Virus record (IMG/VR): IMGVR_UViG_3300026762_000001
DNA: 55,416 bases
Source of the DNA: an uncultured virus (IMG/VR IMGVR_UViG_3300026762_000001)
Lineage: Fuselloviridae
Direction: 5' to 3' (one strand)
Part shown: piece by piece, positions 2,164 to 22,132 of the stretch
How the letters are laid out: the number at the start of each line of letters is the position of its first letter
How positions within the stretch are numbered: the stretch's first letter is position 1
The notes under the pieces: model-generated
What the model was told of the DNA's origin: nothing
Database searches by the model: none
Seen by the model: only the letters and a program-made list of their open reading frames with translations
Made by a program: the position numbers and the translations under genes

Positions 2164-2439
2164 TTTTCACACCTCTGAGAGTACTTTTGTTTTGGGGGTA
2201 TATAAATTTTTCTTTCTAAAGTTAGTAATGTGTACTTATACTTTTGAATTCTTTAAAAGTGAGAGAAATTGAAAAAATTGCAGAGCTGCATGAGAAAAAA
2301 TTGAATGAAATAATTTTACGAGAGTGAGAAAAATAATGAAGAGAAAGGAGAAAAGAAAAAAGAAGAAAGGAAAGAAATAATAAATGGAAAATGAGAAAAA
2401 TAGAAGATAAAAAACAACACGACTTAACGCGACACGTCG

Positions 2440-3177
2440 TTAACGTACGTTGTCATTAACACGTCTTTTTAAGTAATTTATAACGTTGTTTATGGCACCG
2501 TCGTGGCTGTCATTAACGTTGATTAAAAACGTTAAGAAGCGTTGTATAATGTAATTAGCTGCGTTGTATAACTCATCGTTGTCGTTCACGTCGTTCAGGT
2601 TAACGTTATTCAGATCGTTTATTAAGCTTCGTAGTTGTTCTAGTAGTTGTTTGTCGTAGTCGTTCTGCTCATTGTCGTTTTGTTGTTCAATAGCGTTGTT
2701 ATTCTGTTGTTCATCGTTATTGTCTTCATTAACGTCGTTCTGTTCATCGTAGTTAGTAACGTTGTTTTGCATAACGTTGTTAACGTTTGTAGTAACGTTG
2801 TTCAACATAATGCGTCTCTTCTTAACGTTGTTTTTATAGTAGTCGTCCAGGTCAAACGTCATTAATTCCTTTAAAACGTTGTTCATGTCAGCGTAAGCTT
2901 TTAACGTTTTTACGACATACTTTAAAACGTCGATATCGCGTTTAGTCGTTATTTGCGTTAGGAAATCTTCTAGACGTTGTTCAGGATATAATACTAACGT
3001 CTTTGTACCGTTCTTAAAGTCGTAATTAACGATTATTATTGCGTTGTCTTTTAGTTGTTTAATCTTTATCTTAACGTTTTTAGCTATGTCGTTATTATCT
3101 ACGTTTTTGCTGCGTTGTTTAGAGCGTATATTTACGTCTTTTAGTAGTTCATTGAACCAGTCGTCATTAGTACTCAT
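2440..3177 (-). CDS. Hypothetical protein, N/D/V-rich
   Basis: 245-aa ORF in an operon with overlapping start/stop codons. Confidence 0.7.
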   Translation of the reverse strand: MSTNDDWFNELLKDVNIRSKQRSKNVDNNDIAKNVKIKIKQLKDNAIIIVNYDFKNGTKTLVLYPEQRLEDFLTQITTKRDIDVLKYVVKTLKAYADMNNVLKELMTFDLDDYYKNNVKKRRIMLNNVTTNVNNVMQNNVTNYDEQNDVNEDNNDEQQNNNAIEQQNDNEQNDYDKQLLEQLRSLINDLNNVNLNDVNDNDELYNAANYIIQRFLTFLINVNDSHDGAINNVINYLKRRVNDNVR

Positions 3178-3557
3178 CGTTTCTCACCTCGTACAGATAT
3201 TTTTATGTTGTTTATTACTAACGTCCTGTTGTCGTTGTTGTTACGTTTATTAACGTTATTAGACGTAGCGTTGTTCTCGTCGTCTTTATAATGATCCTCA
3301 TCGTTTTTATTACGTTTTTGAACGAGTTTATTAAATAGTTCTTCAGCGTACTTAGCGTCGTAACCGTGATACCAAAACGTCAGTTCAACAGACGTTACTT
3401 TAGTACCGTTCATATAACGTTCTTTTTCGCGTTGTTCAGCGACTCCGATGCGTTGTTGATTGCAACACGTACATTTAAGTAATACTACGTTATTAACGTT
3501 ACTAATAACGTTCCAGACGTGAGTTTTAACATTTAATACTTTAAAACGTTTAGTCAT
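3174..3557 (-). CDS. Hypothetical protein
   Basis: ORF coupled to its neighbours by overlaps. Confidence 0.65.
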   Translation of the reverse strand: MTKRFKVLNVKTHVWNVISNVNNVVLLKCTCCNQQRIGVAEQREKERYMNGTKVTSVELTFWYHGYDAKYAEELFNKLVQKRNKNDEDHYKDDENNATSNNVNKRNNNDNRTLVINNIKISVRGEKR

Positions 3558-3963
3558 CGTTTCTCATCTCGTTGTAGTTAGAAGCGTATATTAACGTAAA
3601 GTGTCTAAAGTACATCGTAGACGTAGATGAGTCGTAATAACCAACGTCGTAATGGTAGTTGTTTAACAATAACGTGATTTGTTGTAAATAATACGGTGGT
3701 AAGTTAGTGCATATTGCAATCATATCGTAATTTAGTTGTTGTATAACGTTCTGTTCAAGATGACGTAGTAATTTTTGTAAGTAAGCGTAAGTTAGACGTC
3801 CATGGATGTGTAGTATCGCTACTTTGTTATTAACGTTTTCAACAAAGACGTTAATTGGTAAGTCGTTGTTATGCTGCTGCGTTATTTTACGAGAAACGTT
3901 GCTAGAAGATAACGTAGTTATAGTAACGTTGTTAATTTTTATAACGTTACTCATCGTTCTCAC
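3550..3963 (-). CDS. Hypothetical protein
   Basis: ORF in operon; the likely start is the second Met (~3954). Confidence 0.65.
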   Translation of the reverse strand: MRTMSNVIKINNVTITTLSSSNVSRKITQQHNNDLPINVFVENVNNKVAILHIHGRLTYAYLQKLLRHLEQNVIQQLNYDMIAICTNLPPYYLQQITLLLNNYHYDVGYYDSSTSTMYFRHFTLIYASNYNEMRNDD

Positions 3964-4732
3964 CTAGTTTTTTCAGGTCGTTATTATCAAACGTTATTGA
4001 TAAGTCGTATATTTTCTCGTGCTTATCTTTCGTCATTACTGTTACGTTAATCGTTAATTCGTCATTGCGTAGTTCAAACTCGTTTATTATATAGTCGTAT
4101 TTCTTACCGTATATTAACGTCGTCTTTCTGACGTTGTTTAATACGTCTACTACGTTTGTTGTATTATCGTTTTTCAAAGAGTTAAATATATCGTTTGCTA
4201 TGTCGTTTAGTTCAGCGTCTTTATCGTTGTTGTTCAAAGCGTTGTTTAATAGTTGTCTTTCATCGTCGTTGTCAAACGTTATTGTTAATTCGTCGAATTT
4301 GAAGTTGTTATACGTCATTGGAATAACGTTCATTACGTTGTTAGCAATAGACGTTATTTTGAAAACGTAATATCTTCCAAATATAACGTTGTTAATGATC
4401 TTACGTTGCTGTAAAGCGTCTTTCAAGTCGTTTATTAACAAGCCGTTCTCTAAGTCGTTGTTAAATTTACGTAGTAGATCTAACGTTTTCGGAACGTGAT
4501 TAGAAGTCGTAGTTACAGAAACGTCTTTAACGTTTACGTTGTTAGAAGAAGACGTTTTTATAGAAACGTTGTTTAATGAAATAGAAGACGTTGGGTAAGG
4601 TTGGGGCTGTCTAAGTCCCAACCATTCCCTTATCTCGGGGGACATTGCAAAAAAGTCCCCCAATGTCATCCCGCCCGCGATGGGGCGGGATCTTTTACTT
4701 TTGGATTTGTTTCCTCCTTTCATTTTTTCCAC
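3947..4732 (-). CDS. Hypothetical protein
   Basis: 261-aa ORF with a TATA box (CTTATA) upstream at ~4760. Confidence 0.7.
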   Translation of the reverse strand: MEKMKGGNKSKSKRSRPIAGGMTLGDFFAMSPEIREWLGLRQPQPYPTSSISLNNVSIKTSSSNNVNVKDVSVTTTSNHVPKTLDLLRKFNNDLENGLLINDLKDALQQRKIINNVIFGRYYVFKITSIANNVMNVIPMTYNNFKFDELTITFDNDDERQLLNNALNNNDKDAELNDIANDIFNSLKNDNTTNVVDVLNNVRKTTLIYGKKYDYIINEFELRNDELTINVTVMTKDKHEKIYDLSITFDNNDLKKLGENDE

Positions 4733-4940
4733 CTGGGAAATTTATGCAAAAGGGGGTATATAAGCTTTTCTTGTAAATTTTAATTTCTTTCACTTGAGAG
4801 AAATTCAGAAGACTGAAAAAATTTCGTACAGTTGAGACGCGTTGACGTTGAGAAAAAGAAGGAGAAAGTACGAAATGCTAGTATATAGCAAAAGTACGAA
4901 CTAAGAACTATACAGTACGTTTTTTACATAACGTAATTTT

Positions 4941-6533
4941 CTAACGATTCTCTCGTTCTTCACTGAAATCTTCTATGTCGTGCTTATCGTACCAGAAGCG
5001 TTGTTTATAAACGTTCTTAGCGAATTCTTTTAACACAGTTATCATCTCTTCGTCGTCAAACGTCCTTCCGAAGAATCCCTTAAAGTCGTCTTCGTAATAA
5101 GGTTGAAAGTCTTTACAATTATCGTGACTGTCTACTTTTACACAGCGTCCTACCCAGTCGTGGTGTGAAAAGTATTTGTAACGCGTTTCTGGACATATCC
5201 AGTAAACGCGGTTAGTCCACGACAGTTCGATAGGCGTGTTTGCACCGTCAAAGTCTCCAATATAAACGACTGGTAATGACGACTTTATTATTTGTTGTAT
5301 AGCGTCTTCATGGCTAATTTCTTCAAAGCGTTTAGTCTTATCGTTATAATACGACACGATGTAGCCGTTTGGTGCAACGTATATTATTACGTCTTTTCTC
5401 TTCAAAGCAGCTTTAAAGAACGTGTCTAATTCGTCTATCAACCACGTCATTGAACCACTGTTGTCGAGTATTAAAAAGACTTGCGACCTCGTCCTAAAGT
5501 AGTAGTAAGCGTTGATGGGTTTTCTCTCGTATTGTCTCATCATGAGTTTTTTAACGTTTAGTACTAACGTTGGGCCAGGTAGTAACGTTGGCTGTTTTTC
5601 TTCGTCGCTTAAGTACTCTACGAGTCTGTAAAACGTTAAGTATAATTGTCTTTTAATGCTGTGTTTTTCGTTTATCTTAAACGCTTGTTGTGTGTTATAT
5701 TGCGTCGTGTCTTCTTGATCTTCATCATCTTCGTAGTAATCGTCTTGTTCTTCATCATAATCATGTTCTTGTTCTTCGACTTCTTGCTCTTGATAATCGT
5801 CACTTACAGAATTGTCTAAAGTTTGTTCTTCTGTTTCATCGTTCTGATTAGTTTCGTTTTGTGATTCGCCGTTGTCTTGTTGATCGTTTTGTTCTGAATT
5901 GTTATTCTGTTGATTAGTCTCTGTTTTGTTTTGTTGTTCAGTCTGTTGATTTTCGTTAGTTTGTTGTTGTTCTGACTGTTGTTGATTAGTTTCGTTTTGC
6001 TGGTCGTTATTATTTTGTAATTCGTTTTGTTGTTGATTAGTTTGTGACTGATTGTTTTGTTGACTTTCGTTAGTTTGTTGAGTGTTGTTTTGTTGATGTT
6101 CAGTAGTCTGTTGATTTTGTCCTGAATCGTTATTATTTTGTGACTGATTGTTTTGTTGATGTTCAGTTTGTTTATCGTTTTGCTGATTTTCGTTATTACT
6201 TTGAGATTCGTTTTGTTGCTCTGATTGTTGATTTTTGGTGTTTTGTTGTTCAGTTTGTTTATCGTCAGGTTGAGAAGAAGCGTTTTGATTTTGTTGTTGT
6301 GTTTCGTTATTCTGCTGATTTTCGTTTTGCTGATCGTTTTGTTGTTGTTCTGACTGTGTCTGATTTTCGTTTTGTTGTTGTGCAAAGCGTTGATCTTCCA
6401 TACTTTGCGTTATTTCGTCGCCGCCGTGAACGTCTTCAGACGTTTTTGTCGTAGGTTCTACTACGTCTTTTTCTTCGTGTTCAGGATGAAACTCGTTGTG
6501 TAAAATTCGTGGTTTAATTACTTTAATGACCAT
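4941..6533 (-). CDS. VWA-domain protein with a long Q/N/E-rich low-complexity linker
   Basis: MIDAS-like LILDNSGSM and YIGDFDG motifs; directly downstream of a MoxR AAA+ gene. Confidence 0.8.
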   Translation of the reverse strand: MVIKVIKPRILHNEFHPEHEEKDVVEPTTKTSEDVHGGDEITQSMEDQRFAQQQNENQTQSEQQQNDQQNENQQNNETQQQNQNASSQPDDKQTEQQNTKNQQSEQQNESQSNNENQQNDKQTEHQQNNQSQNNNDSGQNQQTTEHQQNNTQQTNESQQNNQSQTNQQQNELQNNNDQQNETNQQQSEQQQTNENQQTEQQNKTETNQQNNNSEQNDQQDNGESQNETNQNDETEEQTLDNSVSDDYQEQEVEEQEHDYDEEQDDYYEDDEDQEDTTQYNTQQAFKINEKHSIKRQLYLTFYRLVEYLSDEEKQPTLLPGPTLVLNVKKLMMRQYERKPINAYYYFRTRSQVFLILDNSGSMTWLIDELDTFFKAALKRKDVIIYVAPNGYIVSYYNDKTKRFEEISHEDAIQQIIKSSLPVVYIGDFDGANTPIELSWTNRVYWICPETRYKYFSHHDWVGRCVKVDSHDNCKDFQPYYEDDFKGFFGRTFDDEEMITVLKEFAKNVYKQRFWYDKHDIEDFSEERENR

Positions 6534-8493
6534 TTTTGATCAACTCGTTGCACATGTTGTTAGCGTAATTCTTAAGTTCTTCTGCCATTTTATAAAGCAT
6601 TTTTATACCGTCTATTAAGTCGTATTCTCCAACGTAATTATTTACGATTTTATATATGTCATTAGTTATGATAAAGCTTTCTTCTTCCTTTTTGTTAGTA
6701 ACATATCTTGTAACGTCTAAATAATTAAACCTAAATTCTACGTAATTATAATGAGCATCAGTCGAAACGTTGATTTTTGTCTCACACTCGCCTTTACCTT
6801 GTTTAATCGTCGCCGTAGATTCGTAGCCTTTTGCGACGTTTATTTTAGCACGTAGATTAACCGTCCCTTTAGTGTCGTTTATGAAGTCAATTAACGTTTT
6901 ATAGTCGTTACTATTAAAGTAGTCTCCTCTTATTATTTCGTCTTTGCTATACTTAACGTTATCGAGTAGTGATACAAGAAAGTTTTGTAATTGATACTTT
7001 CTCAGCAGTCTTTCGATGAAGTTTATTTGTCGTCTTTGTTCGTCGCTGCTTAAGTTTTGTTTATTAACGTAAATTTTCGCTTTATATAAACGTCCTTTGA
7101 CATTGTCTAGACGTAGAACAAAGCGAGTAACGTCTTGTTTTTTATCAACAGTGACAATCACGTCTTTAGTATAGTATGTAAATCGTAGATCAGCGTACTC
7201 GCTTTTTATAAGACCAATAACGTCTTTAGGATCACGTAAATAAACGTAATCTTCAACGTACGCTTCAAAGTTCATTTTATAATAAATGTCATCTAATTCG
7301 TTTAGCGTTAACGGCTCATTAGACGTTAACCTTAACGTGTCATCAAGTACGACTTTAAATTTTCCTAAAACGTCTGGTCTATCCGTTGGTTCAGGTTTAA
7401 ACGTTTTGATTACTTCGCTGTATTCGTTAAACGTATTCGTGTCTATCGCTGCGTTAAACGTACTTTCGATCTCGTCATTAACCTTATCTACGTTGTTTAC
7501 CGTTTGAACGATTTTATTAACAGGTAGTTTTATTTTAGTTAATAGTTGTTGTACTGTTGTTTCTTGCTGTTGTTGTTGTGTCGTTTGTTGCGGTGGTGAT
7601 GTTACGTTATTGACTGTTTTTACTATCGTTTCTACAACGTTGGGTAAATACGTCTCTTTTTGTTGTATTTGGCTTACGTTAAGTCGTTCCAACGACACGT
7701 TTAGTTTATATAAGTCTTCAACGTTCTTTACTACAAACGAAAGTAATAGTTGATTAAAGTCAACGTCTGGCATAACCGTCATTGCGTAACCCAACTGTAT
7801 AAGTTCTTGAATCGTTATCGGCTTAGTTAATTCCGTAGTTAAACCAGCGATATATATAGTCGTTAACGTCTTAATAATTTTATCGTCATCAAAGTGTCTT
7901 CTTAAGAGTTTTTCAACGTCTTTAGGATCGGGTAGTTTAAAGTCGATAGTTATTACACGTCTTAAAAGTGGTTCAGAAAACTCTCTGTTGTCATTTGACG
8001 TTATGAAAACGATTAAGTTGTTTTTATCACCGACGATAACGTCTTCTTTATCGTCAATTCTAAACGAAACTCTAGCGTTTTGTAAATAGTCGAGTAATAA
8101 AGCGTCTGCTGAAGGTCTCGTTTTATCGAATTCGTCTATTGTGAGTACCGTGATTTTTTCGCGTGATTTTATTAACGCGTCAGGTAATGGGCCGTATTGT
8201 ATACGTACTCCTGATCTCGTTTGTTCTGACGGAATGTATTTGTATATTAATTCGTCTTCAGTCGTGTTTAAAGTAGTTTGAATAAAGACGTAGTGAGCGT
8301 TAAAGGAATCGGCTACAATTTGCGTAATCATAGTTTTTCCAGCCCCTGGAGGGCCACGTAGTAAAAATGCTGGTAACGTTTTTGAACGTCTTGCAGCGTT
8401 AATACCTACGTAAATTAACTTAATAATATCGTCTTCTCCGACTACGTACTGAGAAACGTAGTTTTTGAAAGACTCAAACGTAAACTCACTCAT
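6523..8493 (-). CDS. MoxR-type AAA+ ATPase
   Basis: Walker A GPPGAGKT, Walker B LTIDEFDK, sensor ITSN, arginine finger EPLLRR. Confidence 0.9.
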   Translation of the reverse strand: MSEFTFESFKNYVSQYVVGEDDIIKLIYVGINAARRSKTLPAFLLRGPPGAGKTMITQIVADSFNAHYVFIQTTLNTTEDELIYKYIPSEQTRSGVRIQYGPLPDALIKSREKITVLTIDEFDKTRPSADALLLDYLQNARVSFRIDDKEDVIVGDKNNLIVFITSNDNREFSEPLLRRVITIDFKLPDPKDVEKLLRRHFDDDKIIKTLTTIYIAGLTTELTKPITIQELIQLGYAMTVMPDVDFNQLLLSFVVKNVEDLYKLNVSLERLNVSQIQQKETYLPNVVETIVKTVNNVTSPPQQTTQQQQQETTVQQLLTKIKLPVNKIVQTVNNVDKVNDEIESTFNAAIDTNTFNEYSEVIKTFKPEPTDRPDVLGKFKVVLDDTLRLTSNEPLTLNELDDIYYKMNFEAYVEDYVYLRDPKDVIGLIKSEYADLRFTYYTKDVIVTVDKKQDVTRFVLRLDNVKGRLYKAKIYVNKQNLSSDEQRRQINFIERLLRKYQLQNFLVSLLDNVKYSKDEIIRGDYFNSNDYKTLIDFINDTKGTVNLRAKINVAKGYESTATIKQGKGECETKINVSTDAHYNYVEFRFNYLDVTRYVTNKKEEESFIITNDIYKIVNNYVGEYDLIDGIKMLYKMAEELKNYANNMCNELIKNGH

Positions 8494-8582
8494 TCGTTAT
8501 CACCTTTGTTTATAACGTGGTTGAAACACGAAAACGTGGTTATTTTTGCGTTTTTTGAGAATAGGATTTGTTTGCCCTTCAT
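8490..8582 (-). CDS. 30-aa peptide coupled to the AAA+ gene (MKGKQILFSKNAKITTFSCFNHVINKGDNE)
   Basis: Has GGTGAG RBS and the repeated promoter; its stop overlaps the AAA+ start (ATGA). Confidence 0.5.
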   Translation of the reverse strand: MKGKQILFSKNAKITTFSCFNHVINKGDNE

Positions 8583-8646
8583 ACTCTCACCTGAGAGAAA
8601 AAATAGGGGGAAGGGGGTTTAAAAAGTTTTCGCTTGAACGACACAA

Positions 8647-9351
8647 TTAAACGTATCCAATATCCACCAGATAAGTTGATATTAACATTATTATCGTATT
8701 TAATATTGCGTTCGGTCTTTCTTTAAGTATTTTAACTATGTCGTTATACATGAGAAGACTATTAAAATCGACAAGAGGGATATTACCTTTTATTAACAAC
8801 GTACGATCGTTTTTGTTTAGTATTTTGAACGTCATTTTTTCATCAATCTCGTATTCCTTAATAATAACGTCAACATGTATTTTTTCTATCGTTATTTCAA
8901 TTCCATCATCACTTATCTTTATGTCGTGTTTATACGTCATCCTAGCCGTGTATAATAAATGCAAATATGGGTGGGCGTTAAAAATGTGATATATAAATAC
9001 AAGATAACGTATATATGTTGGGTGTCTAAGTACGAACTGTTTAAATTCGTCGAAGTCGTTGAAGCCTAACGCATCCACTTGTATAACGTATTCATCAACG
9101 AATATTTCGTTATAGCCTGTACCAGCGTGCTTCATCATATAGTCAAGCGTGATTATTGGGAACACGTCAAACCGTATCTCATAAATGTCATAAATTTCGG
9201 TAAGTGCGATAACCTCGTTATTAAAGTTAAAGAGTAGTGGTTCATTAGCCGTAGTTTTAAACGTTAGTTTTAACTTATCGTTATTGTCTTCAACGTTTAT
9301 TAGCTCCGTTTTAAACGTTATATTGTTGTCTGAACTATTTGTCTTCTTCAT
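8647..9351 (-). CDS. Hypothetical protein
   Basis: ORF track 8647-9381; GGTGA RBS favours the MKKTN start. Confidence 0.7.
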   Translation of the reverse strand: MKKTNSSDNNITFKTELINVEDNNDKLKLTFKTTANEPLLFNFNNEVIALTEIYDIYEIRFDVFPIITLDYMMKHAGTGYNEIFVDEYVIQVDALGFNDFDEFKQFVLRHPTYIRYLVFIYHIFNAHPYLHLLYTARMTYKHDIKISDDGIEITIEKIHVDVIIKEYEIDEKMTFKILNKNDRTLLIKGNIPLVDFNSLLMYNDIVKILKERPNAILNTIIMLISTYLVDIGYV

Positions 9352-9986
9352 TTTTTCACCACATCTTGTTTTGTTGAGCATATTAGTCCTTCATACGGAC
9401 TAAGTATGGGTGCGTTAATTAAGTCTTTTAAGTGCAAATAATCATCAACGTCGATTTTTACATGCCTTATCGTAAATTCGCAGTACTTACCACGTAACAA
9501 TTCAAACGTATCGTGCCACGTGTCATTATCGCCGTCAGTATGAATAATTACAGCGTCTCCAGCGTAGAATTTGAGTAACGCTAATAACGTTGTAACCGAT
9601 ATATCGTAGTCTCCCAAATTCGTCTTTACGAATCCTAACTTTGCGTTGGTTTTTATGAAGTTTTTGCGTATAAAGTCTTCTATTTTTTTGTAGTAGTTGT
9701 AGTCCATAAGGGGGTAAATTTGAAAGCGTTTAGCTTCATTAACAATACATGGTAGATCGTATTTTGCTAAATGTACTTCTACGTCGTCTAAATAACGTAA
9801 CTCAAACGTTTCTCCTTCGTTGTTTAATGAGGATATAGTTACATCGTTACCGTTTATGTCTATATCCGCGACGTCTCTAAAATAGTCAATGTATTTTCTA
9901 TATTCGTTTATGACAGTAGATACTACGTTATTGAACTCGTTTTCGTTGAGTATGTACCAGTAATGTGAATATCCCATTGTTACCAC
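9348..9986 (-). CDS. Hypothetical protein (MGYSHYW N-terminal motif)
   Basis: 212-aa ORF in operon. Confidence 0.7.
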   Translation of the reverse strand: MVTMGYSHYWYILNENEFNNVVSTVINEYRKYIDYFRDVADIDINGNDVTISSLNNEGETFELRYLDDVEVHLAKYDLPCIVNEAKRFQIYPLMDYNYYKKIEDFIRKNFIKTNAKLGFVKTNLGDYDISVTTLLALLKFYAGDAVIIHTDGDNDTWHDTFELLRGKYCEFTIRHVKIDVDDYLHLKDLINAPILSPYEGLICSTKQDVVKK

Positions 9987-10761: not shown

Positions 10762-10777
10762 TTTTTCACCCCGAAAA

Positions 10778-11432: not shown

Positions 11433-11470
11433 GATAGAAAAGGGGGAGGGGGGTTAAAAAAGCTTTCGCT
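11403..11470 (-). promoter_or_regulatory. Repeated promoter cassette CGAAAGCTTTTTAACCCCC...CTTTTTCTC...GGTGGAAAAATG
   Basis: Copies at ~8580-8635, 12940-12990, 17989-18055, 19077-19127, 21017-21067, 23529-23582, 25025-25077, 26814-26884, 28215-28267, 29853-29905 and 30449-30497; BRE+TATA-like box followed by an RBS. Confidence 0.8.
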
Positions 11471-12942: not shown

Positions 12943-13020
12943 GTTCTCACCAAAGAGAGAAATAGATGAAGGGGGTTTAAAAAGCTTTCGGTGAGAGGAC
13001 GTAACTAAACTATAAATTGT

Positions 13021-13776
13021 TTAGTCTTTAGGTCGTACATCATACGGAATGGTTGAAATATGCGATTGTAAGCGTTTACATTCTACACGAAATGGTTTGA
13101 AGATACGATTATATGCGTCTCTTATAGCTTCAACTTCTTTAGCTAATGATGTGTCATGACTTTCGTAGTATCCACGAATTATATCTTCTGCATCGTAGGA
13201 GTCATATCCAGCGAAAAGTTTCTGTGAGTCTAGTTGTGATGCAATATCGCTTATATCATAATCGTCTATATATTTAGTACCTAAAATACCACGTATTAAC
13301 GTCGGTAACTTCATGTTAATTGTTGCAGTACCAATATCAGCTACCTCTACGGACATACGGCCAACGTTTAGAATACGAACAACAATAGCGATGTATCTAA
13401 GTCCAGGTGCGGGTATCACATATGAAGATCTGAAACCTAGTTTAGATAGATAAGCGTTTACCAAAGATTCTTTGCTTCCATACCTGAGAAAGGGATATAA
13501 ATACCTTATTGGGTCGTATCCAATGAAATAGTCGTTTTTTACGTATACATATGCGTCGTTAGATGAAATTTCGCCAGATTCGAGAAGCTTTCTGTATGAG
13601 ACAAATTCGTATATTTTCCTGTCTTTCGTTATGATAAAATATATATATGACGATTTATCAACACTAAATTTTCGTGTTATGTACTCAGCAATTTCGCGTT
13701 TTTCGTTGATTTCGTCTTCATCGATTTTAACGTTCTCTAGATGTTTAAGTATTTCGTCTATCTTCATTGCTACCAC
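13021..13776 (-). CDS. Paralog family A member 2
   Basis: Shared family motifs. Confidence 0.85.
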   Translation of the reverse strand: MVAMKIDEILKHLENVKIDEDEINEKREIAEYITRKFSVDKSSYIYFIITKDRKIYEFVSYRKLLESGEISSNDAYVYVKNDYFIGYDPIRYLYPFLRYGSKESLVNAYLSKLGFRSSYVIPAPGLRYIAIVVRILNVGRMSVEVADIGTATINMKLPTLIRGILGTKYIDDYDISDIASQLDSQKLFAGYDSYDAEDIIRGYYESHDTSLAKEVEAIRDAYNRIFKPFRVECKRLQSHISTIPYDVRPKD

Positions 13777-14515
13777 TTACTTGAAATTGTTTAGTGTTTA
13801 TGTCGTATTCTATACGGAATGGTTGAAATATACGATTGTAAGCGTCTCTTATGGCTTCAACTTCTTTAGCCAACGAAGTGTCATGATGATTATAATATTT
13901 ATAAATTATCTCTTTCGCTTCCATAAAGCCATGTCCACCAAAAAGTTTCTGTGAGTCTAGTTGTGACACGATCTCTTTTACCATGCTATCATCTATTTGT
14001 TTAGTACCTAAAACACCGCGTATTAACCTTGGTAAGTTTGTATTGGTTGCAGCAGTGTCAATGTTAGCTACCTCTACGACTGTACGATTAACATCTAGAA
14101 AATGATTAACTGCAGCGATGAATTTAAGCCCAGTAGCAGGTACTACATTATAAAAGTTGGCTTCGAAACCTAGTTTCGATAAATAAGCGTCTACCAAAGA
14201 TATTTCGCTTATCAAAGAGAATACGTGGCTGAGAAAAGGGTAAAAATAAGCTAATGAGTAGTCGTATCCAAAATAGTCGTTTAATATGAATACATATGCG
14301 TCGTTAGGTGAGAGTTTGTTAGATCCGAGAAGATCGCTATACTTATAGAAGTCGTATATTGTCTCCTTGTCTTTCATCATAATGTAAAATAAGTATCGTC
14401 TTTTTTTATGACTGAACGTCTGTGCTAAGTATTCGGCGATTTCATATTTTTCGTTGATTTTATCTTCATCAATTTTGATGTTTTCTAGATGTTTAAGTAG
14501 CTCATTTATTTTCAT
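13745..14515 (-). CDS. Paralog family A member 3
   Basis: Shared family motifs; start moved to MKINELLK at 14515. Confidence 0.85.
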   Translation of the reverse strand: MKINELLKHLENIKIDEDKINEKYEIAEYLAQTFSHKKRRYLFYIMMKDKETIYDFYKYSDLLGSNKLSPNDAYVFILNDYFGYDYSLAYFYPFLSHVFSLISEISLVDAYLSKLGFEANFYNVVPATGLKFIAAVNHFLDVNRTVVEVANIDTAATNTNLPRLIRGVLGTKQIDDSMVKEIVSQLDSQKLFGGHGFMEAKEIIYKYYNHHDTSLAKEVEAIRDAYNRIFQPFRIEYDINTKQFQVSGSNEDRRNT

Positions 14516-15149
14516 TGTTCCCACCCACAATATCGAGTATAAACTTAAGTATGTAATCGTTATATTCTGCGGCGGCAATTAGTTCTGTTATTGTCCCTAT
14601 CATAATGTCATCTTCCGTGTATTCTTTTAGTATAGTTATTGTACCGTCGTTAAACGTAGCAAAAAACGGTACGGTACCGAGAGTTAAAAACAACTCCTCA
14701 ATGCTATTTACACGGAAATATTGTTTGATCTTTTTACTCAAAACGTTGAGGTTTAAGTCTTCAAAAAGTCTTAGAACGTTATGTTTAGGGACAATATTAC
14801 GTTCAACCAGAATCGTAACTAATGGGGCTAAGTTATACGCATATACCTCGTCATCAAGCTGCTTGTATTTCTTAGCTAAATGTATCATTTCGTGAGCAAA
14901 TACGTTTAAGTCTGGTGGTTCGTATCTAAACCATGCATATTGTTCTTTGATATCGCGTGAAGGTAAGGAGAACGCCATAACCGTGTCACGCGGTTTTATG
15001 CGTAATGATTTCACATCGTAATCATCAAGAACGTAAATTTTATCTAACGGGGGCATCCTGTTTTCTACGTTAATGATGTCGTAAACTTTAACGTATTCGT
15101 CCTTAAACCAATTAACTTCAGTAAGCTTCCTCATTTTCCCAGTCCTCAT
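14502..15149 (-). CDS. Putative zinc metallopeptidase-like protein
   Basis: FAHEMIHLA (HEXXH) with downstream DEVYAY. Confidence 0.6.
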   Translation of the reverse strand: MRTGKMRKLTEVNWFKDEYVKVYDIINVENRMPPLDKIYVLDDYDVKSLRIKPRDTVMAFSLPSRDIKEQYAWFRYEPPDLNVFAHEMIHLAKKYKQLDDEVYAYNLAPLVTILVERNIVPKHNVLRLFEDLNLNVLSKKIKQYFRVNSIEELFLTLGTVPFFATFNDGTITILKEYTEDDIMIGTITELIAAAEYNDYILKFILDIVGGNNENK

Positions 15150-15561
15150 ATATTTTGACGTATTGTTTTAATACAACGAATTTCTGGAATTCGAAAACCT
15201 TACATTCCTTACCGTTACCGTAAGTGATCATGACGTATTTGTTTGTATCGTTTTTATAAACGTTCATACACTCCTGCACGTCTTTTGAATGCATAAGTTC
15301 CTTCATTAACGGTTCTACGATAAATACTCTGTCCTTATACTTGTCAATAAGTTCTAGTAATCTCATCTTAAACGACTCTGGTAATATCGCAATTATATAG
15401 ACTTTATCGTATTTTTTAAGAAGTGGTTCAATGTAGTTCTCTATCAAGTATTCAGCCGTTGGTACAAACTGTTTTACAAACGAATGTGGGTACTTGACTA
15501 TTATCTCACGTTCTGCTGGTATTGGGTCGTGTCTCGAAACCCATAATATAAATGACTTCAT
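15118..15561 (-). CDS. Hypothetical protein
   Basis: ORF coupled to the VWA gene. Confidence 0.7.
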   Translation of the reverse strand: MKSFILWVSRHDPIPAEREIIVKYPHSFVKQFVPTAEYLIENYIEPLLKKYDKVYIIAILPESFKMRLLELIDKYKDRVFIVEPLMKELMHSKDVQECMNVYKNDTNKYVMITYGNGKECKVFEFQKFVVLKQYVKIYEDWENEEAY

Positions 15562-16877
15562 TGACTTGACACCTCTTTCAGTATTTTAAGTGCTATCTTA
15601 TCATCTAAATCTTCTGTAGTTAAAACGACACCGTCTACTTTTTTAGTCAGTTCAGTTAAGTTATGGAATGATTCGTTTCCTATTAGTACTGATATTAGCT
15701 TATGTTTACCGTTTTTAATCGCGTTAACCAAAGGTTCTGTATTAAATTCGTCCTCACCGTCAGTTATGACTATTATTATGAACTCTTTCTTATTACGTAG
15801 GTCTTCAAGTGCTTTATTTAACGCACACGATATACACGTCCCGCCATCTGCGTCAACCGAACCGATTTTCGCTAAGTTTTCTAGAGTCAACTTGTCTATC
15901 ATGTCGTAGACATAGTTGTCAAAGAATCTAAACATGAACTTCAGTCTGCGTTGTTTAGCTAAAAGTCCTAAAGCGAACGCTATAGCTCTAGCGTTTACGA
16001 TTTTCTCGCCTCCCATACTACCAGATTTGTCAAGTAAAACGTAATATCCGTCGATGTTACTTTTCTTCGAAAACGTAATAAACGACCCATTTAACATCTT
16101 TATTTCCGTTATTTCGTCATCAACAAAGTTCTTAGGTATTTTAACCGCGTCTAGTATTGATGACGTAATTCTATATGAATTATAAGTACCGTGAGGTGAA
16201 TCGTTGAGTTTGTTAAACAATTCAGTACCTTTCTTCACGATATTAAGTAATACGTTCAAATCTACGTTAAGGTTAGTAATGGTATCGACGAAACGTAATA
16301 TGCCAGGCTCTCTACCGTAAGTATTACTACCCTCCTTATTTTCTTCTCCGTCATTCACATTAATCTTGTCTTTCCCGCCGTTCATTTCCTTAGATATCAT
16401 CTGACGCATCATGGGGTTTTTCAACACGTTATTAACGACTTTACACTTTGAAGCAGCTTGTGATATCTCCTTCTCAATCACGTAAGACATTTGTCTTAGT
16501 TTCTCTTTATTATTCGTCTGTTCAAGTTCGTCTAACAACTTAGTTATGTGGTTGTAAATTATTATGGTGTCGACAGAACTCGTAAGTAAATCGTCAACAG
16601 TTGAAGAACGTAGATCTTCTATCTCCATATAGTTGTTTACCAATGCCGTTCTTACGGCCTCTAACTTTTCGTCGTCGTTTTTGAACCTTAAGAAATAACG
16701 TGGTAGGTATAGTGATGCGAATATATCGCCGCTTACGATTTTATGCCTATCCGTCGGTTTTTTAATTAGAGCGTCTGTCATGATAACGAATTCTTTGAAC
16801 AATTCGTCGTTTTTATGTGGGTTCTTTACGTTAAAATTAAGTAAGTTACTGTATAGTTCCAATTTCTTACCATTCAT
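15558..16877 (-). CDS. VWA-domain protein (ViaA/CoxE-like)
   Basis: MIDAS motifs LLDKSGSM, GGT and ITDGED. Confidence 0.85.
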   Translation of the reverse strand: MNGKKLELYSNLLNFNVKNPHKNDELFKEFVIMTDALIKKPTDRHKIVSGDIFASLYLPRYFLRFKNDDEKLEAVRTALVNNYMEIEDLRSSTVDDLLTSSVDTIIIYNHITKLLDELEQTNNKEKLRQMSYVIEKEISQAASKCKVVNNVLKNPMMRQMISKEMNGGKDKINVNDGEENKEGSNTYGREPGILRFVDTITNLNVDLNVLLNIVKKGTELFNKLNDSPHGTYNSYRITSSILDAVKIPKNFVDDEITEIKMLNGSFITFSKKSNIDGYYVLLDKSGSMGGEKIVNARAIAFALGLLAKQRRLKFMFRFFDNYVYDMIDKLTLENLAKIGSVDADGGTCISCALNKALEDLRNKKEFIIIVITDGEDEFNTEPLVNAIKNGKHKLISVLIGNESFHNLTELTKKVDGVVLTTEDLDDKIALKILKEVSSQ

Positions 16878-16881
16878 TTTG

Positions 16882-17991
16882 TTACACCTTTAATAATTCG
16901 TTTACTATTTCGTCTGGTATATCGATACTATCACATAAGTTTTTCACGTCATTACTCTTAGGCGAATACTTTTCACATAGTTCTTGTGCCTTTATTAGTT
17001 CTCGTTTTAGATTTGTTAACACAATGTATTTGTCTGTTGTACCTTCTTTGGCATTAGTTATCAATACGTTAATAACGTTAATGTGAGAGCGTATTTTATT
17101 AATTACGGAAGCTATCTCGTTTAGTCCATGTTTTAACGCGATAGTTTCGATTTCTTTTATCGAATCAGTATACTTCATCGGGTCGTTAAGCGTGAATTTC
17201 ATCGCAGTTACTAGATCGTCTGGTTCTATGTTGTCCTTTCCTTCAAGTAATGCGTTCGCTGCAGCTACGTATACAGTCTTCTTTACACGTCTGTCCGAGA
17301 TTAAGTAGTTTAGTCCTCTCAGTTCTATTATCGTATCTAAGAATTTGTCAAGTAAAGCGTCGTTAATGTTCATAGCGATTTTCCTAACTTCGTTTTGTAA
17401 GTTTACAATATCGTCATATGTCAGTATGGGTTCTGGCGTCTTTGAATCACTCTTTACTATCTTCTTCAAATCGGATTTGTGAACGTAATTTGCCTCTACT
17501 ACACGTATAGTTAATCTGTCGTTAAATGCTATTAATTCGTCGTCATTATCAAACTCGTTAGATGCGAAATACGTAGTTAATAAGTTGAGTTTAATCCCGA
17601 AAACTCTCCTGTTTAAGATTATATCTAAAAGCATATTTAGTATGTCGGGTGAAGATTTGTATGGTTCGTCAAACATAACGATGTTTGCGTCAACAACACC
17701 ACCGTGATATACTAAACGCCCTTTTTTGTATTCATTTATGTCAAGTATTCCTAATACGTGGTCTGGTTCCGTATATTTATTGAGTAAGATGTAATAGTAA
17801 TTAACGTTTAACATCTTAGCTAACGTGTCTATAGTATACGTCTTTGCGATTCCTACTCGTCCTAAAATAAACGTAGGTTCTGACGACAGAAGACCGAGTA
17901 ATACTGCACGTTTCATATCGTTATGACCGAAAATGTAATTATCTAACGTTGTCTTGACTAGGGAAATATTTTTGGATTTATTTTCTGCCAT
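16882..17991 (-). CDS. RavA/MoxR-type AAA+ ATPase
   Basis: Walker A GRVGIAKT, Walker B VMFDE, ASNE, AFNDRL, ISDRR; start moved to MAENK after the promoter cassette. Confidence 0.88.
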   Translation of the reverse strand: MAENKSKNISLVKTTLDNYIFGHNDMKRAVLLGLLSSEPTFILGRVGIAKTYTIDTLAKMLNVNYYYILLNKYTEPDHVLGILDINEYKKGRLVYHGGVVDANIVMFDEPYKSSPDILNMLLDIILNRRVFGIKLNLLTTYFASNEFDNDDELIAFNDRLTIRVVEANYVHKSDLKKIVKSDSKTPEPILTYDDIVNLQNEVRKIAMNINDALLDKFLDTIIELRGLNYLISDRRVKKTVYVAAANALLEGKDNIEPDDLVTAMKFTLNDPMKYTDSIKEIETIALKHGLNEIASVINKIRSHINVINVLITNAKEGTTDKYIVLTNLKRELIKAQELCEKYSPKSNDVKNLCDSIDIPDEIVNELLKV

Positions 17992-18040
17992 TTTTTTCCA
18001 CCTGGGGGTGAAACCCCATGAGAAAAAGGGTGAAAGGGGG

Positions 18041-18781
18041 TTAAAAAAGCTTTCGCTCGAACGACGCAATGATCTGTTTACTCTTTAGGTCGTATTCTGT
18101 GCGGTACGGTCGAAATATCTGATTATAAGCATGGATAATAGCAGCAACGTCTTTAGCTAATGATGTATCACGATTTTCGTAATATTTATAAAGTATAACC
18201 AATGCCTTGTAGTACTCATGTCCAGCAAAAAGTTTTTGCGAAACCAATTGGGAGGCAATAATTTCTGCCACGTCGTCATCTATTTGTTTAGTACTTATAT
18301 CGCGTACCATTCTTGGTAAGTTAGTGTTAATTGCTACATCGTCAATGTTGGCTACCTCTACGACTGCACGTTTAGCATTTAGAAAACGAACAACCATAGA
18401 GACATATCTAAGTTCAGTAGCAGGTGCTATACGATAAAATTTGCTTTCTAAACCTAGTTTCGATAAATAAGCGTGTGGTAGGAAATATCTATCAATGAGA
18501 AAAGGATAAAAATACCTTATTGGGTCGTATCCAGTGAAATAGTCGTTTTTTACGTATACATATGCGTCGTTAGGTGAAATTTCATTAGATTTGAGAAGCT
18601 CTTTGTATGAGCTGGTGTTGTATATTTTCCTGTCTTTCGTTATGATATAATGATAATAGCGTATTGAATTATCAACGCCTAATTTTTGTGCTATGTATTC
18701 GGCAATTTCACGTCTTTCGTCTTCATCGGTTTTGATGTTTTCTAAGCGTTTAAGTAGTTCATCTATCTTCATTGCTAGCAC
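18041..18781 (-). CDS. Paralog family A member 4
   Basis: Shared motifs; last ~70 bp identical to member 1. Confidence 0.85.
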   Translation of the reverse strand: MLAMKIDELLKRLENIKTDEDERREIAEYIAQKLGVDNSIRYYHYIITKDRKIYNTSSYKELLKSNEISPNDAYVYVKNDYFTGYDPIRYFYPFLIDRYFLPHAYLSKLGLESKFYRIAPATELRYVSMVVRFLNAKRAVVEVANIDDVAINTNLPRMVRDISTKQIDDDVAEIIASQLVSQKLFAGHEYYKALVILYKYYENRDTSLAKDVAAIIHAYNQIFRPYRTEYDLKSKQIIASFERKLF

Positions 18782-18791
18782 CTAATGAACT

Positions 18792-19079
18792 TCACAAGTT
18801 ATCCGACTTTGCTAGCATTATCAGAAGTGCTAGACTGGACTTCATTGACGTGAAGAAACACAGCTTGCCATGACGAAATATTGCACGACATTCATCCTCA
18901 TCTGCTTCGCCACCAGGACTATGACCACGTATGATTTTATTTTCCTCTACCCATTTAAGGAACTCGTCTTCCTGGTCTTTAGGTACACAAATATCATATA
19001 CAACGTATTTATCGTCTAAATCTATGTTATATTCTATACCATAGATAACATATTTTTTCTTTTCTTTATTTTCACTCAT
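18792..19079 (-). CDS. Hypothetical protein
   Basis: ORF after a promoter cassette. Confidence 0.7.
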   Translation of the reverse strand: MSENKEKKKYVIYGIEYNIDLDDKYVVYDICVPKDQEDEFLKWVEENKIIRGHSPGGEADEDECRAIFRHGKLCFFTSMKSSLALLIMLAKSDNL

Positions 19080-19113
19080 GTTCTCACCAAAGAGAGAGAA
19101 AGGGAATGAGGGT

Positions 19114-19914
19114 TTAAAAAGCTTTCGTTGGGAGGACGTGACTAAGTGGTATGAATCGCTTAGTGTTTATGTCGTATACTACTCGATATGGTTGAAATAT
19201 GCGATTGTAAGCGTCTCTGATAGCTGCTACGTCTTTAACCAGTGATATGTCTTCAGCATTATAATACTTTTTAACTATGTCTTCCGCTTCACCAAAGTTG
19301 TATCCTGCAAAAAGTTTTTGTGATTTTAATCGTTTTACAATCTGCTCTAGTTGATAGTCAGGTATGTAATTGAGTCCTTTTGCGTATCGCTCCGCTAAAA
19401 TGCTATGTGATAACATTGGCAAGCTTAAGTTGACAATAACAGTGTTAATGTTAGCGACCTCTATAACAAGATGGTTGACGTCTAAAAAATGATAAACCCG
19501 TGCAATGTATTTTAGTCCAGTAGCTGGTACTATGCCAAATATATAGCGTTCGAAACCTAGTTTCGATAAATAACCAGCTACAAAAAATTGTGGATAACGA
19601 AGGAAGGGATAATAATAAACTGTCTTATAAATACTCACATCCACGTCATAAATACTCACACAACAATTATTTTTAGTGTAAATGAACTTTGAAAGGTATA
19701 CGTAAGCGTCGTTTGGTGAAATTTTGTTAGATCTGATAACTCTATCGTACGAGTCAATATCATATATTTTCTTATTTCTCAGTATGAAATTATCCATGCC
19801 CATCCCGATCTCGTTGAATTCTTGTGTTAAGTACTCTGCGATTTCGCGTTTTTCATCAATATTTTCGTCGATTTCAAAGTTTTCTAACCGTTTAAGTAAC
19901 TCATCGACTTTCAT
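19114..19914 (-). CDS. Paralog family A member 5
   Basis: Shared family motifs. Confidence 0.85.
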   Translation of the reverse strand: MKVDELLKRLENFEIDENIDEKREIAEYLTQEFNEIGMGMDNFILRNKKIYDIDSYDRVIRSNKISPNDAYVYLSKFIYTKNNCCVSIYDVDVSIYKTVYYYPFLRYPQFFVAGYLSKLGFERYIFGIVPATGLKYIARVYHFLDVNHLVIEVANINTVIVNLSLPMLSHSILAERYAKGLNYIPDYQLEQIVKRLKSQKLFAGYNFGEAEDIVKKYYNAEDISLVKDVAAIRDAYNRIFQPYRVVYDINTKRFIPLSHVLPTKAF

Positions 19915-20734
19915 TGTCTCTCACCTCATTAAATAGGTCAGTGAAGAGGTCACGAGTGTGTTCAAGAAAGGGTGCATCGACGTATACATTGCGGACTGCA
20001 AAACCTTTAACCGTTGTAAGAACATATTGTTTATCAATAAGTCCATAATTACGTAGCTTGTATAACGTTTTGAATATATTATGTCTCACCGCAGCAGATG
20101 CACATGTAGAAGACGAATAAAGTTTTTCACACACTTCATTATACGTTACAAAACTTTCAACATTCATTATTTTGTTTGCTAAATCAGCGATCCTAATTAC
20201 CTCGTTATCATATTTCAGGGTTACGATTTTAACGTATATATCTTTTAAGGGCTTCATTTTAACGTCTGCATTGTCTGGTCGTGAGTACTTTTCATATATT
20301 TCCTTTGCTCTTTCCGTAACATCGTACTCAAAAGTTATACTCCTTTCTCTAACCATTTTGTAGCCTTTTGTAACTATTCCGAACTCACTAACGACGTCTA
20401 TGGGTTCTGCTTCTTCTTTATTAAACGTTACGTTTGACAATATAGTTTCTAGTTTCTTGTGCGAAAAATCACGTAGATACGGTAATATCACAAAACTGAC
20501 TTTCGACTTGGTGGCAAGAATTAGTGGAATGCCTACGTATATCTTAAAATCATCGAGGTCAATTAACATTCTTGATGGATTTTTGTCTCGATAAACGTAG
20601 AATTCATCTCCATATTTTATTAGGATTGACGTGTTTCTAAAGAATTTATACGTATTATAAATAGTCAATAGGGTAGAGTATTTCTTAGGTATTTCAACGT
20701 TCTCTAGGCGTTTAAGTAACTCATCGACTTTCAT
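19901..20734 (-). CDS. Hypothetical protein with MKVDELLKRLEN tag
   Basis: 277-aa ORF; body unrelated to family A. Confidence 0.75.
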   Translation of the reverse strand: MKVDELLKRLENVEIPKKYSTLLTIYNTYKFFRNTSILIKYGDEFYVYRDKNPSRMLIDLDDFKIYVGIPLILATKSKVSFVILPYLRDFSHKKLETILSNVTFNKEEAEPIDVVSEFGIVTKGYKMVRERSITFEYDVTERAKEIYEKYSRPDNADVKMKPLKDIYVKIVTLKYDNEVIRIADLANKIMNVESFVTYNEVCEKLYSSSTCASAAVRHNIFKTLYKLRNYGLIDKQYVLTTVKGFAVRNVYVDAPFLEHTRDLFTDLFNEVRDNESR

Positions 20735-20746
20735 GTCCTCAGCCCT

Positions 20747-21031: not shown

Positions 21032-21098
21032 GAGAAAAAGGGTGAAAGAGGGTTAAAAAGCTTTCGGTGAGAGAACGTGGTTATGAATAGTTGTTCAG

Positions 21099-21141: not shown

Positions 21142-21149
21142 CCTAGTAT

Positions 21150-22108: not shown

Positions 22109-22132
22109 AGAGTTCTATGGCCTCATCCTTCT

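What the first reader, a model, noticed from the sequence alone, without database searches (positions are those of the whole stretch)
2420..20700. Regional over-representation of ACGT (often AACGTT) that shapes protein sequence
Seen: from ~2420 the palindrome ACGT becomes very dense. I count 8 in 2761-2940 and 6 in ~4521-4592, against roughly one per 300 nt expected at this base composition. It is densest up to ~11 kb, stays elevated to ~21 kb, and is sparse in 1-2400 and in the right half. It spans unrelated genes and enriches NV, DV and TL dipeptides. Inference: selection acts on the DNA itself, for example as binding sites for a coating or packaging protein, modification sites, or decoys for a host factor.
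Basis: partly seen in the sequence, partly recalled or inferred. Interest (0 to 1): 0.7.

Follow-up and report, generated by a model that had tools for sequence, protein, structure and literature searches.

The report
12-bp ACG lattice in archaeal virus
One arm of an uncultured hot-spring element, likely an archaeal virus, carries the triplet ACG about once every 12-13 bases, starting abruptly at a conserved junction, fading over some 20 kb and skewing the proteins encoded there, which likely marks a track for a DNA-coating protein.

Summary
Confirmed and sharpened. ACGT is 10x expectation at 2420-4420 and normal beyond 21 kb, but the real unit is ACG on either strand. Enrichment starts at a conserved ~26-bp junction (2422-2447), fades one way (fitted decay ~12 kb) and recurs in relatives ~80% identical. 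It survives codon and amino-acid controls, is reached by transversions as well as transitions, and raises NV/DV/TF dipeptides. New here: the sites avoid each other. A synonymous site makes ACG 172/188 times when the next ACG is 10 or more bp away, but 46/75 times when it is within 7 bp. Gaps peak at 12 bp, and a ~13-bp coverage model reproduces them. Controls show no such avoidance (right half of the window, pooled ATV/ATSV/SMV3/SMV4). The element is Sulfolobales virus-like (five ATV ORF273 paralogs, MoxR/VWA), probably ~100 kb. Best reading (0.5): selection for one binding site per footprint of a cooperatively spreading coat protein that nucleates at the junction. The protein is unidentified; the adjacent Alba-like gene and a conserved basic helical protein are candidates. 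Rivals are shielding by base modification and a short-patch repair ratchet. No description turned up in the literature searches or earlier scan notes.

The parts
2422..2447 (.). Conserved junction element where the ACG-rich arm ends abruptly; it follows the last stop codon of the leftward operon arm and precedes a terminator-like T-run on the coding strand
   Evidence: ACG+CGT per 100 nt jumps from 0-3 to 7-13 at 2401. The block is aligned and nearly invariant in window, L024, L025 and L027. L025 ends exactly at it, and L024 continues with a different gene. Its folding is no better than shuffles, z 0.03-0.72.
2420..4590 (.). Saturated part of the lattice: ACG/CGT cores about every 12 bp with A/T-rich spacers, across four unrelated ORFs
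   Evidence: 2421-4420: 147 cores, median gap 12, 77% of bases within 6 nt of a core against 60% for random placement. Gap mode 12 and spectral peak at 12.0-13.0, z 3.6-4.4.
4591..22000 (.). Decaying part of the gradient (about 50 cores per kb to 10 kb, 25-45 per kb to 20 kb); neighbour exclusion persists, clear periodicity fades
   Evidence: Synonymous-site use of ACG/CGT falls from 0.70 to 0.39; an exponential fit with L of about 12 kb beats linear and step fits. Exclusion in zone B: 43/83 vs 112/142, p 5e-5.
1..2419 (-). ACG-poor, A-rich region of repeated promoter cassettes beyond the junction
   Evidence: ACG+CGT 19 vs 32 expected; repeats D8, D11, D20; equally poor beyond the junction in L024 and L027, 17-18 vs 98 per kb.
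1672..2163 (-). Alba-like protein with a Q/N-rich N-terminus, directly beyond the junction; candidate coating protein
   Evidence: Pfam Alba 28.7 bits vs cut-off 25; 9 hits among 64 candidates, including itself; aligned. DNA binding not tested.
2440..3177 (-). ORF245, 20% Asn and 11% Asp: the protein most reshaped by the motif
   Evidence: orthologs 74-76% identical in L024 and L027 carry the same density, 73-74 per kb
6523..8493 (-). MoxR-like AAA ATPase whose [NDYH]V dipeptides are doubled
   Evidence: Pfam AAA_5. O/E is 1.72-2.36 in 12 of 12 proteins at 65% identity or more (query included) and 0.48-1.73, median 1.18, in 24 more distant ones; 36 of 120 listed hits were examined.
11454..19914 (-). 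Shuffling cassette zone with five ATV ORF273 paralogs and a MoxR-VWA pair
   Evidence: PF20828 hits at 11454, 13021, 13745, 18041 and 19114; VWA 15558-16877 and MoxR 16882-18069; rearranged joints in public runs
44598..45047 (-). ORF149, a highly conserved basic all-helical protein; candidate nucleocapsid protein, outside the gradient
   Evidence: 14-member cluster, 97% mean column identity; 20 hits among 50%-identity representatives; no link to a known capsid fold
53526..54374 (-). ParA-type ATPase, relevant to the partition variant of the explanation
   Evidence: PHROG 164 E 1.5e-21; NF041546 below cut-off

Best explanation
The arm from the junction at about 2420 rightwards holds ACG cores at roughly one per 12-13 bp, and this is likely a selected binding track for a protein that would cover about 12 bp per unit, nucleate at the conserved junction and polymerise one way along the genome as a coat. 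Shown: the motif, its polarity, its conservation, its spacing and its imprint on proteins. Inferred: a protein lattice as the selective agent; each unit would gain from one ACG core in an A/T-rich setting, a second core inside the same footprint would add little, and the benefit would fade with distance from the nucleation site, giving the ~12-kb decay. Its purpose is not shown. Initiation of genome coating for packaging at or near a genome end is my first guess; a centromere-like or silencing nucleoprotein is the second.
For: (1) Neighbour exclusion at synonymous sites: Asn/Asp/Tyr/His-before-G sites form ACG 46/75 times at 7 bp or less from another core and 172/188 times at 10 bp or more (p 3e-8); Thr sites 24/71 vs 64/95. 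It repeats in L024+L011 (64/105 vs 181/208) and is absent right of 28 kb (18/55 vs 106/271) and in ATV/ATSV/SMV3/SMV4 (315/617 vs 998/1976). (2) Pair correlation 0.32 at 3-6 bp, 1.47 at 11-14, 0.86 at 15-20, 1.28 at 21-26. (3) A coverage model 13 bp wide matches the gap histogram and independent sites do not. (4) All routes lead to ACG: Arg uses CGN 48/68 times after A and 8/35 otherwise; four-fold sites before CG are A 14/14; Thr before T is ACG 83%. (5) Same gradient and same junction in L024, L025, L027 at ~81% identity, and the same rise in L011 and L009. (6) In zone A a selection-type rate model fits (2dLL 0.8-2.1) and protection-only is rejected (11.3-11.4). (7) Known archaeal DNA coats have this repeat: 12 bp per capsid dimer in AFV1 and SIRV2 (PMC5517147, passages) and 10-12 bp for Alba in low-density mode (PMC3325275, passages).
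Against: No binding protein was identified. Typical Alba proteins bind without sequence specificity (PMC3325275). Order is short-range: gaps spread over 9-15 bp and there is no single coherent period over kilobases, which fits a rigid 12-bp capsid lattice poorly. The 12-bp spectral peak is weak or missing in L011, at 9400-12500 and in the pooled zone-B loci. In zone B the selection-only rate model is rejected (2dLL 8.1-20.6) and a pure ATG>ACG gain model fits. Within 8-25 kb, density does not track position among relocated homologs (rho 0.38, p 0.15, n 16) or ORF273 paralogs (rho -0.10, n 33). A virion coat covers the whole genome, so a local gradient needs the extra assumption that only early steps are sequence-limited. 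CC/GG loss shows no phase relative to the cores and is unexplained.
Confidence: 0.5

Rival explanations
1. ACG is the target of a base or backbone modification, and one modified site per ~12 bp shields the most exposed arm from host nucleases or CRISPR; the parallel CC/GG loss would be PAM avoidance.
For: A coverage benefit gives the same spacing statistics. CC/GG falls to 28 per kb at the junction against 77-90 in much of the right half. CCN as the Sulfolobales type I-A PAM is recalled, not tested. The element encodes glycosyltransferases, a nucleotidyltransferase, an epimerase and a methyltransferase domain, and avoids GCGC (0) and CCGG (2).
Against: No DNA-modifying enzyme was recognised in the window, though about half the genome may be missing. 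The sugar enzymes lie near Ser/Thr/Pro-rich membrane genes. The 2.4 kb beyond the junction is neither ACG-rich nor CC-poor for its composition.
Confidence: 0.22
2. A non-adaptive ratchet: methylation-directed very-short-patch repair or biased conversion, acting on tracts that start at the junction, fixes mismatches towards ACG and saturates at one site per patch, as Elhai modelled for HIP1.
For: ATG>ACG rates are 3.2-4.2 against 0.65-1.4 at baseline sites in all three zones, and a gain-only model fits zone B. ATG/ACG sites are hypervariable. Elhai's model predicts saturation at the repair length (PMC4390886, section 3.4 part 1).
Against: Transversion routes and G/T>A routes also converge on ACG, loss of ACG is slower near the junction (0.49 vs 1.8), and peaks recur at 21-26 and 36-38 bp. 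No such enzyme was found.
Confidence: 0.13
3. An intrinsic DNA property is selected: evenly spaced AC/CG/GT steps with A/T spacers would tune bending, melting or the B-to-A transition next to an origin or genome end, with no sequence-reading protein.
For: G+C content is unchanged while its arrangement shifts (purine-pyrimidine alternation 0.52 vs 0.45-0.49), and G+C and AA/TT/TA oscillate around the cores.
Against: CG steps outside ACG/CGT show no spacing pattern. A 12-13 bp repeat is off the helical repeat, so bends would not add up in plane (established knowledge).
Confidence: 0.1
4. The arm came from an ACG-rich donor, or reflects codon usage and Asn/Asp-rich low-complexity proteins.
For: Density stays with genes inside the shuffled zone, and the proteins are N/D-rich.
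Against: The signal survives fixed-protein nulls, ACG is still being gained, intergenic DNA shares it, and no comparable donor appeared among 7 reference viruses or 80 of 120 IMG/VR pattern hits.
Confidence: 0.05

Closest known systems
HIP1 (GCGATCGC) of cyanobacteria (PMC4390886 abstract and section 3.4 part 1; PMC5861425 abstract)
   Same: An over-represented CG-centred motif inside and between genes, argued to come from selection or from methylation-directed repair, with a proposed role in chromosome architecture.
   Different: HIP1 is an 8-bp palindrome spread genome-wide, saturating near 1 per kb with 10-90 kb periodicity. This is a 3-bp core at up to ~75 per kb, spaced at 12 bp, confined to one arm and anchored at one junction.
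Nucleocapsids of filamentous archaeal viruses AFV1 and SIRV2 (PMC5517147, passages)
   Same: 12 bp of DNA per protein dimer; same host order inferred.
   Different: The passages read describe backbone contacts and no sequence code. SIFV has no such gradient or exclusion, and no SIRV2-fold protein was demonstrated here.
Alba/Sac10b chromatin (PMC3325275, passages)
   Same: Cooperative coating with 10-12 bp per dimer at low density; an Alba-like gene sits next to the junction.
   Different: Typical Alba has no sequence specificity. The viral protein has a long Q/N-rich extension and lacks part of the canonical basic motif (canonical motif recalled).
Partition complexes that spread from a centromere: ParB/parS, AspA-ParBA, SegAB (PMC8682754, passages)
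   Same: Nucleation at one palindrome-like site and spreading over kilobases; a ParA gene is present.
   Different: Known spreading is non-specific beyond the cognate site and is not reported there to imprint a motif lattice on coding DNA. No ParB, AspA or SegB was recognised.
DNA uptake sequences, KOPS and nucleosome-type dinucleotide periodicity (recalled, no call)
   Same: DNA-level motifs that bias protein sequence, show polarity towards a fixed site, or are phased to a protein repeat.
   Different: Longer motifs at far lower density, or a 10-11 bp helical phase. None is recalled to combine a one-sided gradient with footprint-scale exclusion.
Bicaudaviridae (ATV, ATSV, SMV3, SMV4) as relatives of the element
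   Same: ORF273 paralogs, MoxR plus VWA, ORF244 (52% to SMV4), the Tas-like gene (81% to ATSV), TnpB (74% to ATV).
   Different: None has the ACG gradient. No spindle major capsid protein or integrase homolog was found in the window.

Membership tests
HIP1-type motif system | Genome-wide over-representation of a 6-8 bp palindrome | tested here: not met
   The core is the trinucleotide ACG and is confined to one arm.
HIP1-type motif system | Cognate DNA methyltransferase in the genome | tested here: inconclusive
   None recognised in Pfam (74 ORFs), PHROGs or NCBIfam scans; the window may be only part of a ~100-kb genome and the host is unknown.
HIP1-type motif system | Motif favoured at silent and non-coding sites | tested here: met
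Adnaviria-type nucleocapsid (AFV1/SIRV2) | Major capsid protein with the SIRV2 fold | tested here: inconclusive
   ORF149 model pLDDT 58.7; best VIA Z 6.0 among generic helical bundles; no profile match to PDB or to one SIFV virion protein.
Adnaviria-type nucleocapsid (AFV1/SIRV2) | 12 bp of A-form DNA per dimer | not testable with these tools
   Sequence spacing peaks at 12 bp, but order is short-range and no particle is available.
Adnaviria-type nucleocapsid (AFV1/SIRV2) | Linear genome with inverted terminal repeats | tested here: inconclusive
   No terminal overlap or inverted repeat at the window ends; five contigs end 0-3 kb beyond the junction, which may be an end or an assembly break.
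Alba/Sac10b chromatin protein | Alba domain | tested here: met
   PF01918 28.7 bits over a cut-off of 25; below the NCBIfam cut-offs.
Alba/Sac10b chromatin protein | Cooperative DNA binding through conserved basic residues | not testable with these tools
   The alignment shows ALG[YF]A where the recalled canonical motif is basic; no binding assay.
ParABS / AspA / SegAB partition system | ParA ATPase | tested here: met
   53526-54374
ParABS / AspA / SegAB partition system | Centromere-binding protein and its site | tested here: inconclusive
   No ParB, AspA or SegB family hit among window ORFs; the junction is 51 kb from parA in this contig.
Bicaudaviridae | Spindle-virus major capsid protein (ATV ORF131 type) | tested here: inconclusive
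   No tblastn hit of window proteins to the annotated head proteins and no profile match for ORF149; part of the genome is missing.
Bicaudaviridae | MoxR AAA plus VWA and ORF273-like genes | tested here: met

The most novel reading that the evidence does not exclude
This lineage of ~100-kb hot-spring viruses writes an assembly code into its coding DNA: a defined origin of assembly at the junction, followed by a kilobases-long, one-site-per-subunit track that nucleates and orients the nucleocapsid and has been paid for by rewriting the proteins encoded there. It would be a double-stranded DNA counterpart of an origin of assembly, readable from sequence alone, in an undescribed virus group.
Probability: 0.25. 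Interest if true: 0.9.

Novelty: new variant of a known kind. Interest (0 to 1): 0.74.

Why it matters
How archaeal viruses with protein-coated genomes choose their own DNA and where coating starts is, to my knowledge, open. Here a start site, a direction, a motif and a footprint can be read from sequence, so the question becomes directly testable with short synthetic DNA and two or three candidate proteins. It is also an unusually strong case of DNA-level selection overriding protein sequence (20% Asn in the nearest gene, doubled NV/DV in an AAA ATPase). The neighbour-exclusion statistic gives a way to screen other genomes for such lattices.

Tried and rejected
No whole genome is held for the window or for the 102,872-bp relative, so genome topology and the missing half are unknown. 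IMG/VR scans with three window proteins and one alignment found no relatives. GTDB gave none with MoxR and 11 distant loci of 62 stretches with the AAA alignment; the two archaeal ones checked have background ACG. A spaced-AACGTT pattern had no match in 48 loci. A related pattern gave 120 IMG/VR loci; 80 were examined and none resembles the window (best local O/E 2.6 without exclusion, against 5.5). ACGT as a palindromic unit was rejected. A single-lesion mutation signature was rejected, and so was protection-only. A hairpin at the junction has no support. A polarised singleton count was too small to decide. ORF149 could not be tied to a known fold or family; that is no evidence against a capsid role. 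ORF261 had no useful Atlas hit. Long-range phase coherence was looked for and not found. Paper searches for a prior description found none; the library omits most subscription journals and no supplements were read.
Full report
Observation. Against base composition, ACGT is 65 vs 6.4 expected in 2420-4420, 177 vs 28 in 2420-11000, 98 vs 33 in 11-21 kb, 109 vs 116 beyond 21 kb and 1 vs 5.9 left of 2420. A second-order Markov model does not find ACGT itself in excess (z -4.5), because the enriched unit is shorter. K-mer contrasts put ACG first (76 vs 20 per kb). A conditional model of synonymous choice gives ACG the largest weight among 2-3-mers (about 1.1 log-odds; 1.65 on the coding strand and 0.79 on the template), a smaller weight to AC and a negative weight to CC. 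ACGT is what appears when both strands carry ACG.

It is not codon usage or protein composition. With protein and regional codon usage fixed, coding-strand ACG is 425 vs 351 (z 9.5) and ACGT 171 vs 107 (z 8.4) in 2.4-11 kb, against z 2.2 and 0.9 beyond 21 kb. Asn codons end in C 134 of 153 times before G and 3 of 21 times before C in zone A, with no such effect in zone C. Intergenic DNA in zone A has 12 ACG and 10 CGT in 389 nt. The motif also shapes proteins: NV 47 vs 20.5, DV 33 vs 16.2, TF 19 vs 8.5, TL 28 vs 17.6. In the AAA ATPase family, [NDYH]V O/E is 1.72-2.36 in all 12 examined proteins at 65% identity or more and has a median of 1.18 (range 0.48-1.73) in 24 more distant ones. I examined 36 of 120 listed hits, and they are phylogenetically non-independent.

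Geometry. ACG+CGT jumps from 0-3 to 7-13 per 100 nt at 2401 and then decays. An exponential with a length of about 12 kb fits silent-site data better than linear or step forms (NLL 1860 vs 1936 and 1921; those two fits may not have fully converged), and a weak decline continues past 24 kb. A metagenome scan gave 29 loci from 33 of 194 stretches. L024, L025 and L027 (about 81% identical, close to one another) rise to 64-66 ACG per kb and stop at the same place, and L011 and L009 rise in the same direction. The stopping point is a conserved block at window 2422-2447. L025 ends on it, L024 continues into another gene, and the window and L027 continue into a T-run and a promoter cassette. By coordinates, five contigs end 0-3 kb beyond it, which may be a genome end or an assembly break (inference). 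A gene found on both sides has 27-42 cores per kb inside and 17 in the one copy beyond the junction. Inside the shuffled 8-25 kb zone, however, density does not follow position (rho 0.38, p 0.15, n 16; paralogs rho -0.10, n 33).

What drives it. ACG is reached from all sides: Arg uses CGN 48 of 68 times after A and 8 of 35 otherwise, four-fold sites before CG are A 14 of 14 times, and Thr before T is ACG in 83% of 66 cases. One lesion or one repair enzyme acting on T:G cannot do all that. Two-state rate fits on gene trees give ATG>ACG 3.2-4.2 against 0.65-1.4 at baseline sites, and ACG>ATG 0.49, 1.0 and 1.8 moving away from the junction. Protection-only is rejected in pooled zone A and in zone B. 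A selection-type model fits zone A but is rejected in zone B, where gain-only fits. These fits assume equilibrium and orthology, both doubtful in the cassette zone.

The decisive new feature is spacing. In zone A the pair correlation of cores is 0.32 at 3-6 bp, 0.75 at 7-10, 1.47 at 11-14, 0.86 at 15-20 and 1.28 at 21-26. With the protein fixed it is still 0.58, 0.83, 1.16, 0.98 and 1.12, while pooled ATV/ATSV/SMV3/SMV4 genes are flat over these lags. Gaps in 2420-4940 peak at 12, with 95 of 167 between 9 and 15. The spectrum peaks at 11.5-13 bp (z 4.4-4.5 in the window and in L024, 27 periods tried), but not clearly in L011 or at 9.4-12.5 kb, and there is no coherent phase over kilobases. Site by site, an available ACG is used 172 of 188 times when the next core is 10 bp or more away and 46 of 75 times when it is within 7 bp (p 3e-8). 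This repeats in relatives and in zone B, and is absent in zone C and the reference viruses. A toy model in which each core benefits a 13-bp stretch reproduces the gap histogram; independent sites do not, and the data keep an extra shoulder at double spacing (six hand-set parameter pairs, not a fit). So the selected quantity behaves like coverage by a unit about 12-13 bp long.

The element. It is a hot-spring element (20 of 22 listed runs hold part of it, mostly hot-spring metagenomes). It has five ATV ORF273 paralogs, two MoxR-type ATPases (one beside a Pfam VWA gene), glycosyltransferases, ParA, TnpB and an Alba-like gene just beyond the junction. It shares single genes with ATV, ATSV, SMV3/4, YNP1 and SIFV. 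A relative lies on a 102,872-bp contig, and a distant ORF149 homolog is annotated in an Acidianus infernus MAG. A Sulfolobales virus of about 100 kb is the likely identity, but no capsid gene was proven. ATV, ATSV, SMV4 and SMV3 (50 kb of each), YNP1, YNP2 and SIFV lack the gradient.

Mechanism. I favour a protein coat that nucleates at the junction and grows one way, with one ACG core per subunit (0.5). The repeat matches known archaeal coats: 12 bp per dimer in AFV1 and SIRV2 (PMC5517147, passages) and 10-12 bp for Alba at low density, though Alba is described as sequence-independent (PMC3325275, passages). Spreading over kilobases from one site is known for partition proteins (PMC8682754, passages). 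The candidates are unproven: the Alba-like protein and ORF149, whose fold could not be assigned. The rivals are evenly spread base modification as a shield (0.22), a short-patch repair ratchet of the kind Elhai proposed for HIP1 (PMC4390886, abstract and section 3.4 part 1; 0.13), an intrinsic DNA property (0.10) and a donor or composition artefact (0.05). The CC/GG loss is unexplained by the coat model and is the best point for the shield model.

Novelty. Motif over-representation that biases proteins is a known kind: HIP1 (PMC5861425, abstract only), and uptake sequences and KOPS from recall. A one-sided, junction-anchored, footprint-spaced trinucleotide lattice was not found in the paper searches (open-access library only, no supplements read) or in earlier scan notes. 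I rate it a new variant of a known kind with interest 0.74, and give a 0.25 chance that it is a readable origin-of-assembly code.

Noticed in passing
window 23996-25027 (-) with array 23606-23992 and a second short array near 26953-27038: TIGR-Tas-like system: the protein hits NF052498 at E 1.6e-12, below the cut-off, and is followed by about ten 38-nt units with two conserved boxes. It is 81% identical to an ATSV gene that also has a repeat region, and 79% to a YNP1 gene. TIGR-Tas is described in PMC12045711 (search listing only).
   Followed up: partly
window 11454-23543: Array of cassettes starting MK[IV]DE[LI]LK, including five ATV ORF273 paralogs, many behind near-identical promoters; order and number differ among strains (L011 holds 13 ORF273-like copies; joints).
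   Followed up: partly
L024 16545-16965, L025, L027: These relatives carry about 400 extra ACG-rich bases, apparently a gene, between ORF245 and the junction that the window lacks; L025 has a ~170-nt duplication there, possibly an assembly artefact.
   Followed up: no
whole window: GCGC occurs 0 times and CCGG twice in 55 kb, and CCTG/CAGG is depleted in the right half, suggesting avoidance of host restriction sites.
   Followed up: no
window 44598-45047 (-): ORF149 defines an unannotated family of 135-152 aa basic helical proteins; one homolog lies on a 102,872-bp contig and one in an Acidianus infernus MAG.
   Followed up: partly
window 4590-4800: A GC-rich, ACG-poor stretch with an inverted repeat interrupts the lattice at the promoter of the ORF261 operon; the true start of ORF261 is probably downstream of it.
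   Followed up: no
window 22630-22928, 25467-25741, 31433-31731, 48350-48627, 40617-41987: Several near-identical non-autonomous elements, likely of IS200/IS605 type, and one full TnpB; one element interrupts the glycosyltransferase at 48106-49440.
   Followed up: no
window 32188-36238, 42524-43441, 46824-52750: Sugar-nucleotide and glycosyltransferase genes near Ser/Thr/Pro-rich membrane proteins, likely a surface glycosylation module.
   Followed up: no
window 4941-6533 (-): A protein with a ~200-residue Q/N/E-rich tract followed by what looks by eye like a VWA domain (no Pfam hit), directly downstream of the MoxR-like AAA gene, probably a second MoxR-VWA pair.
   Followed up: no
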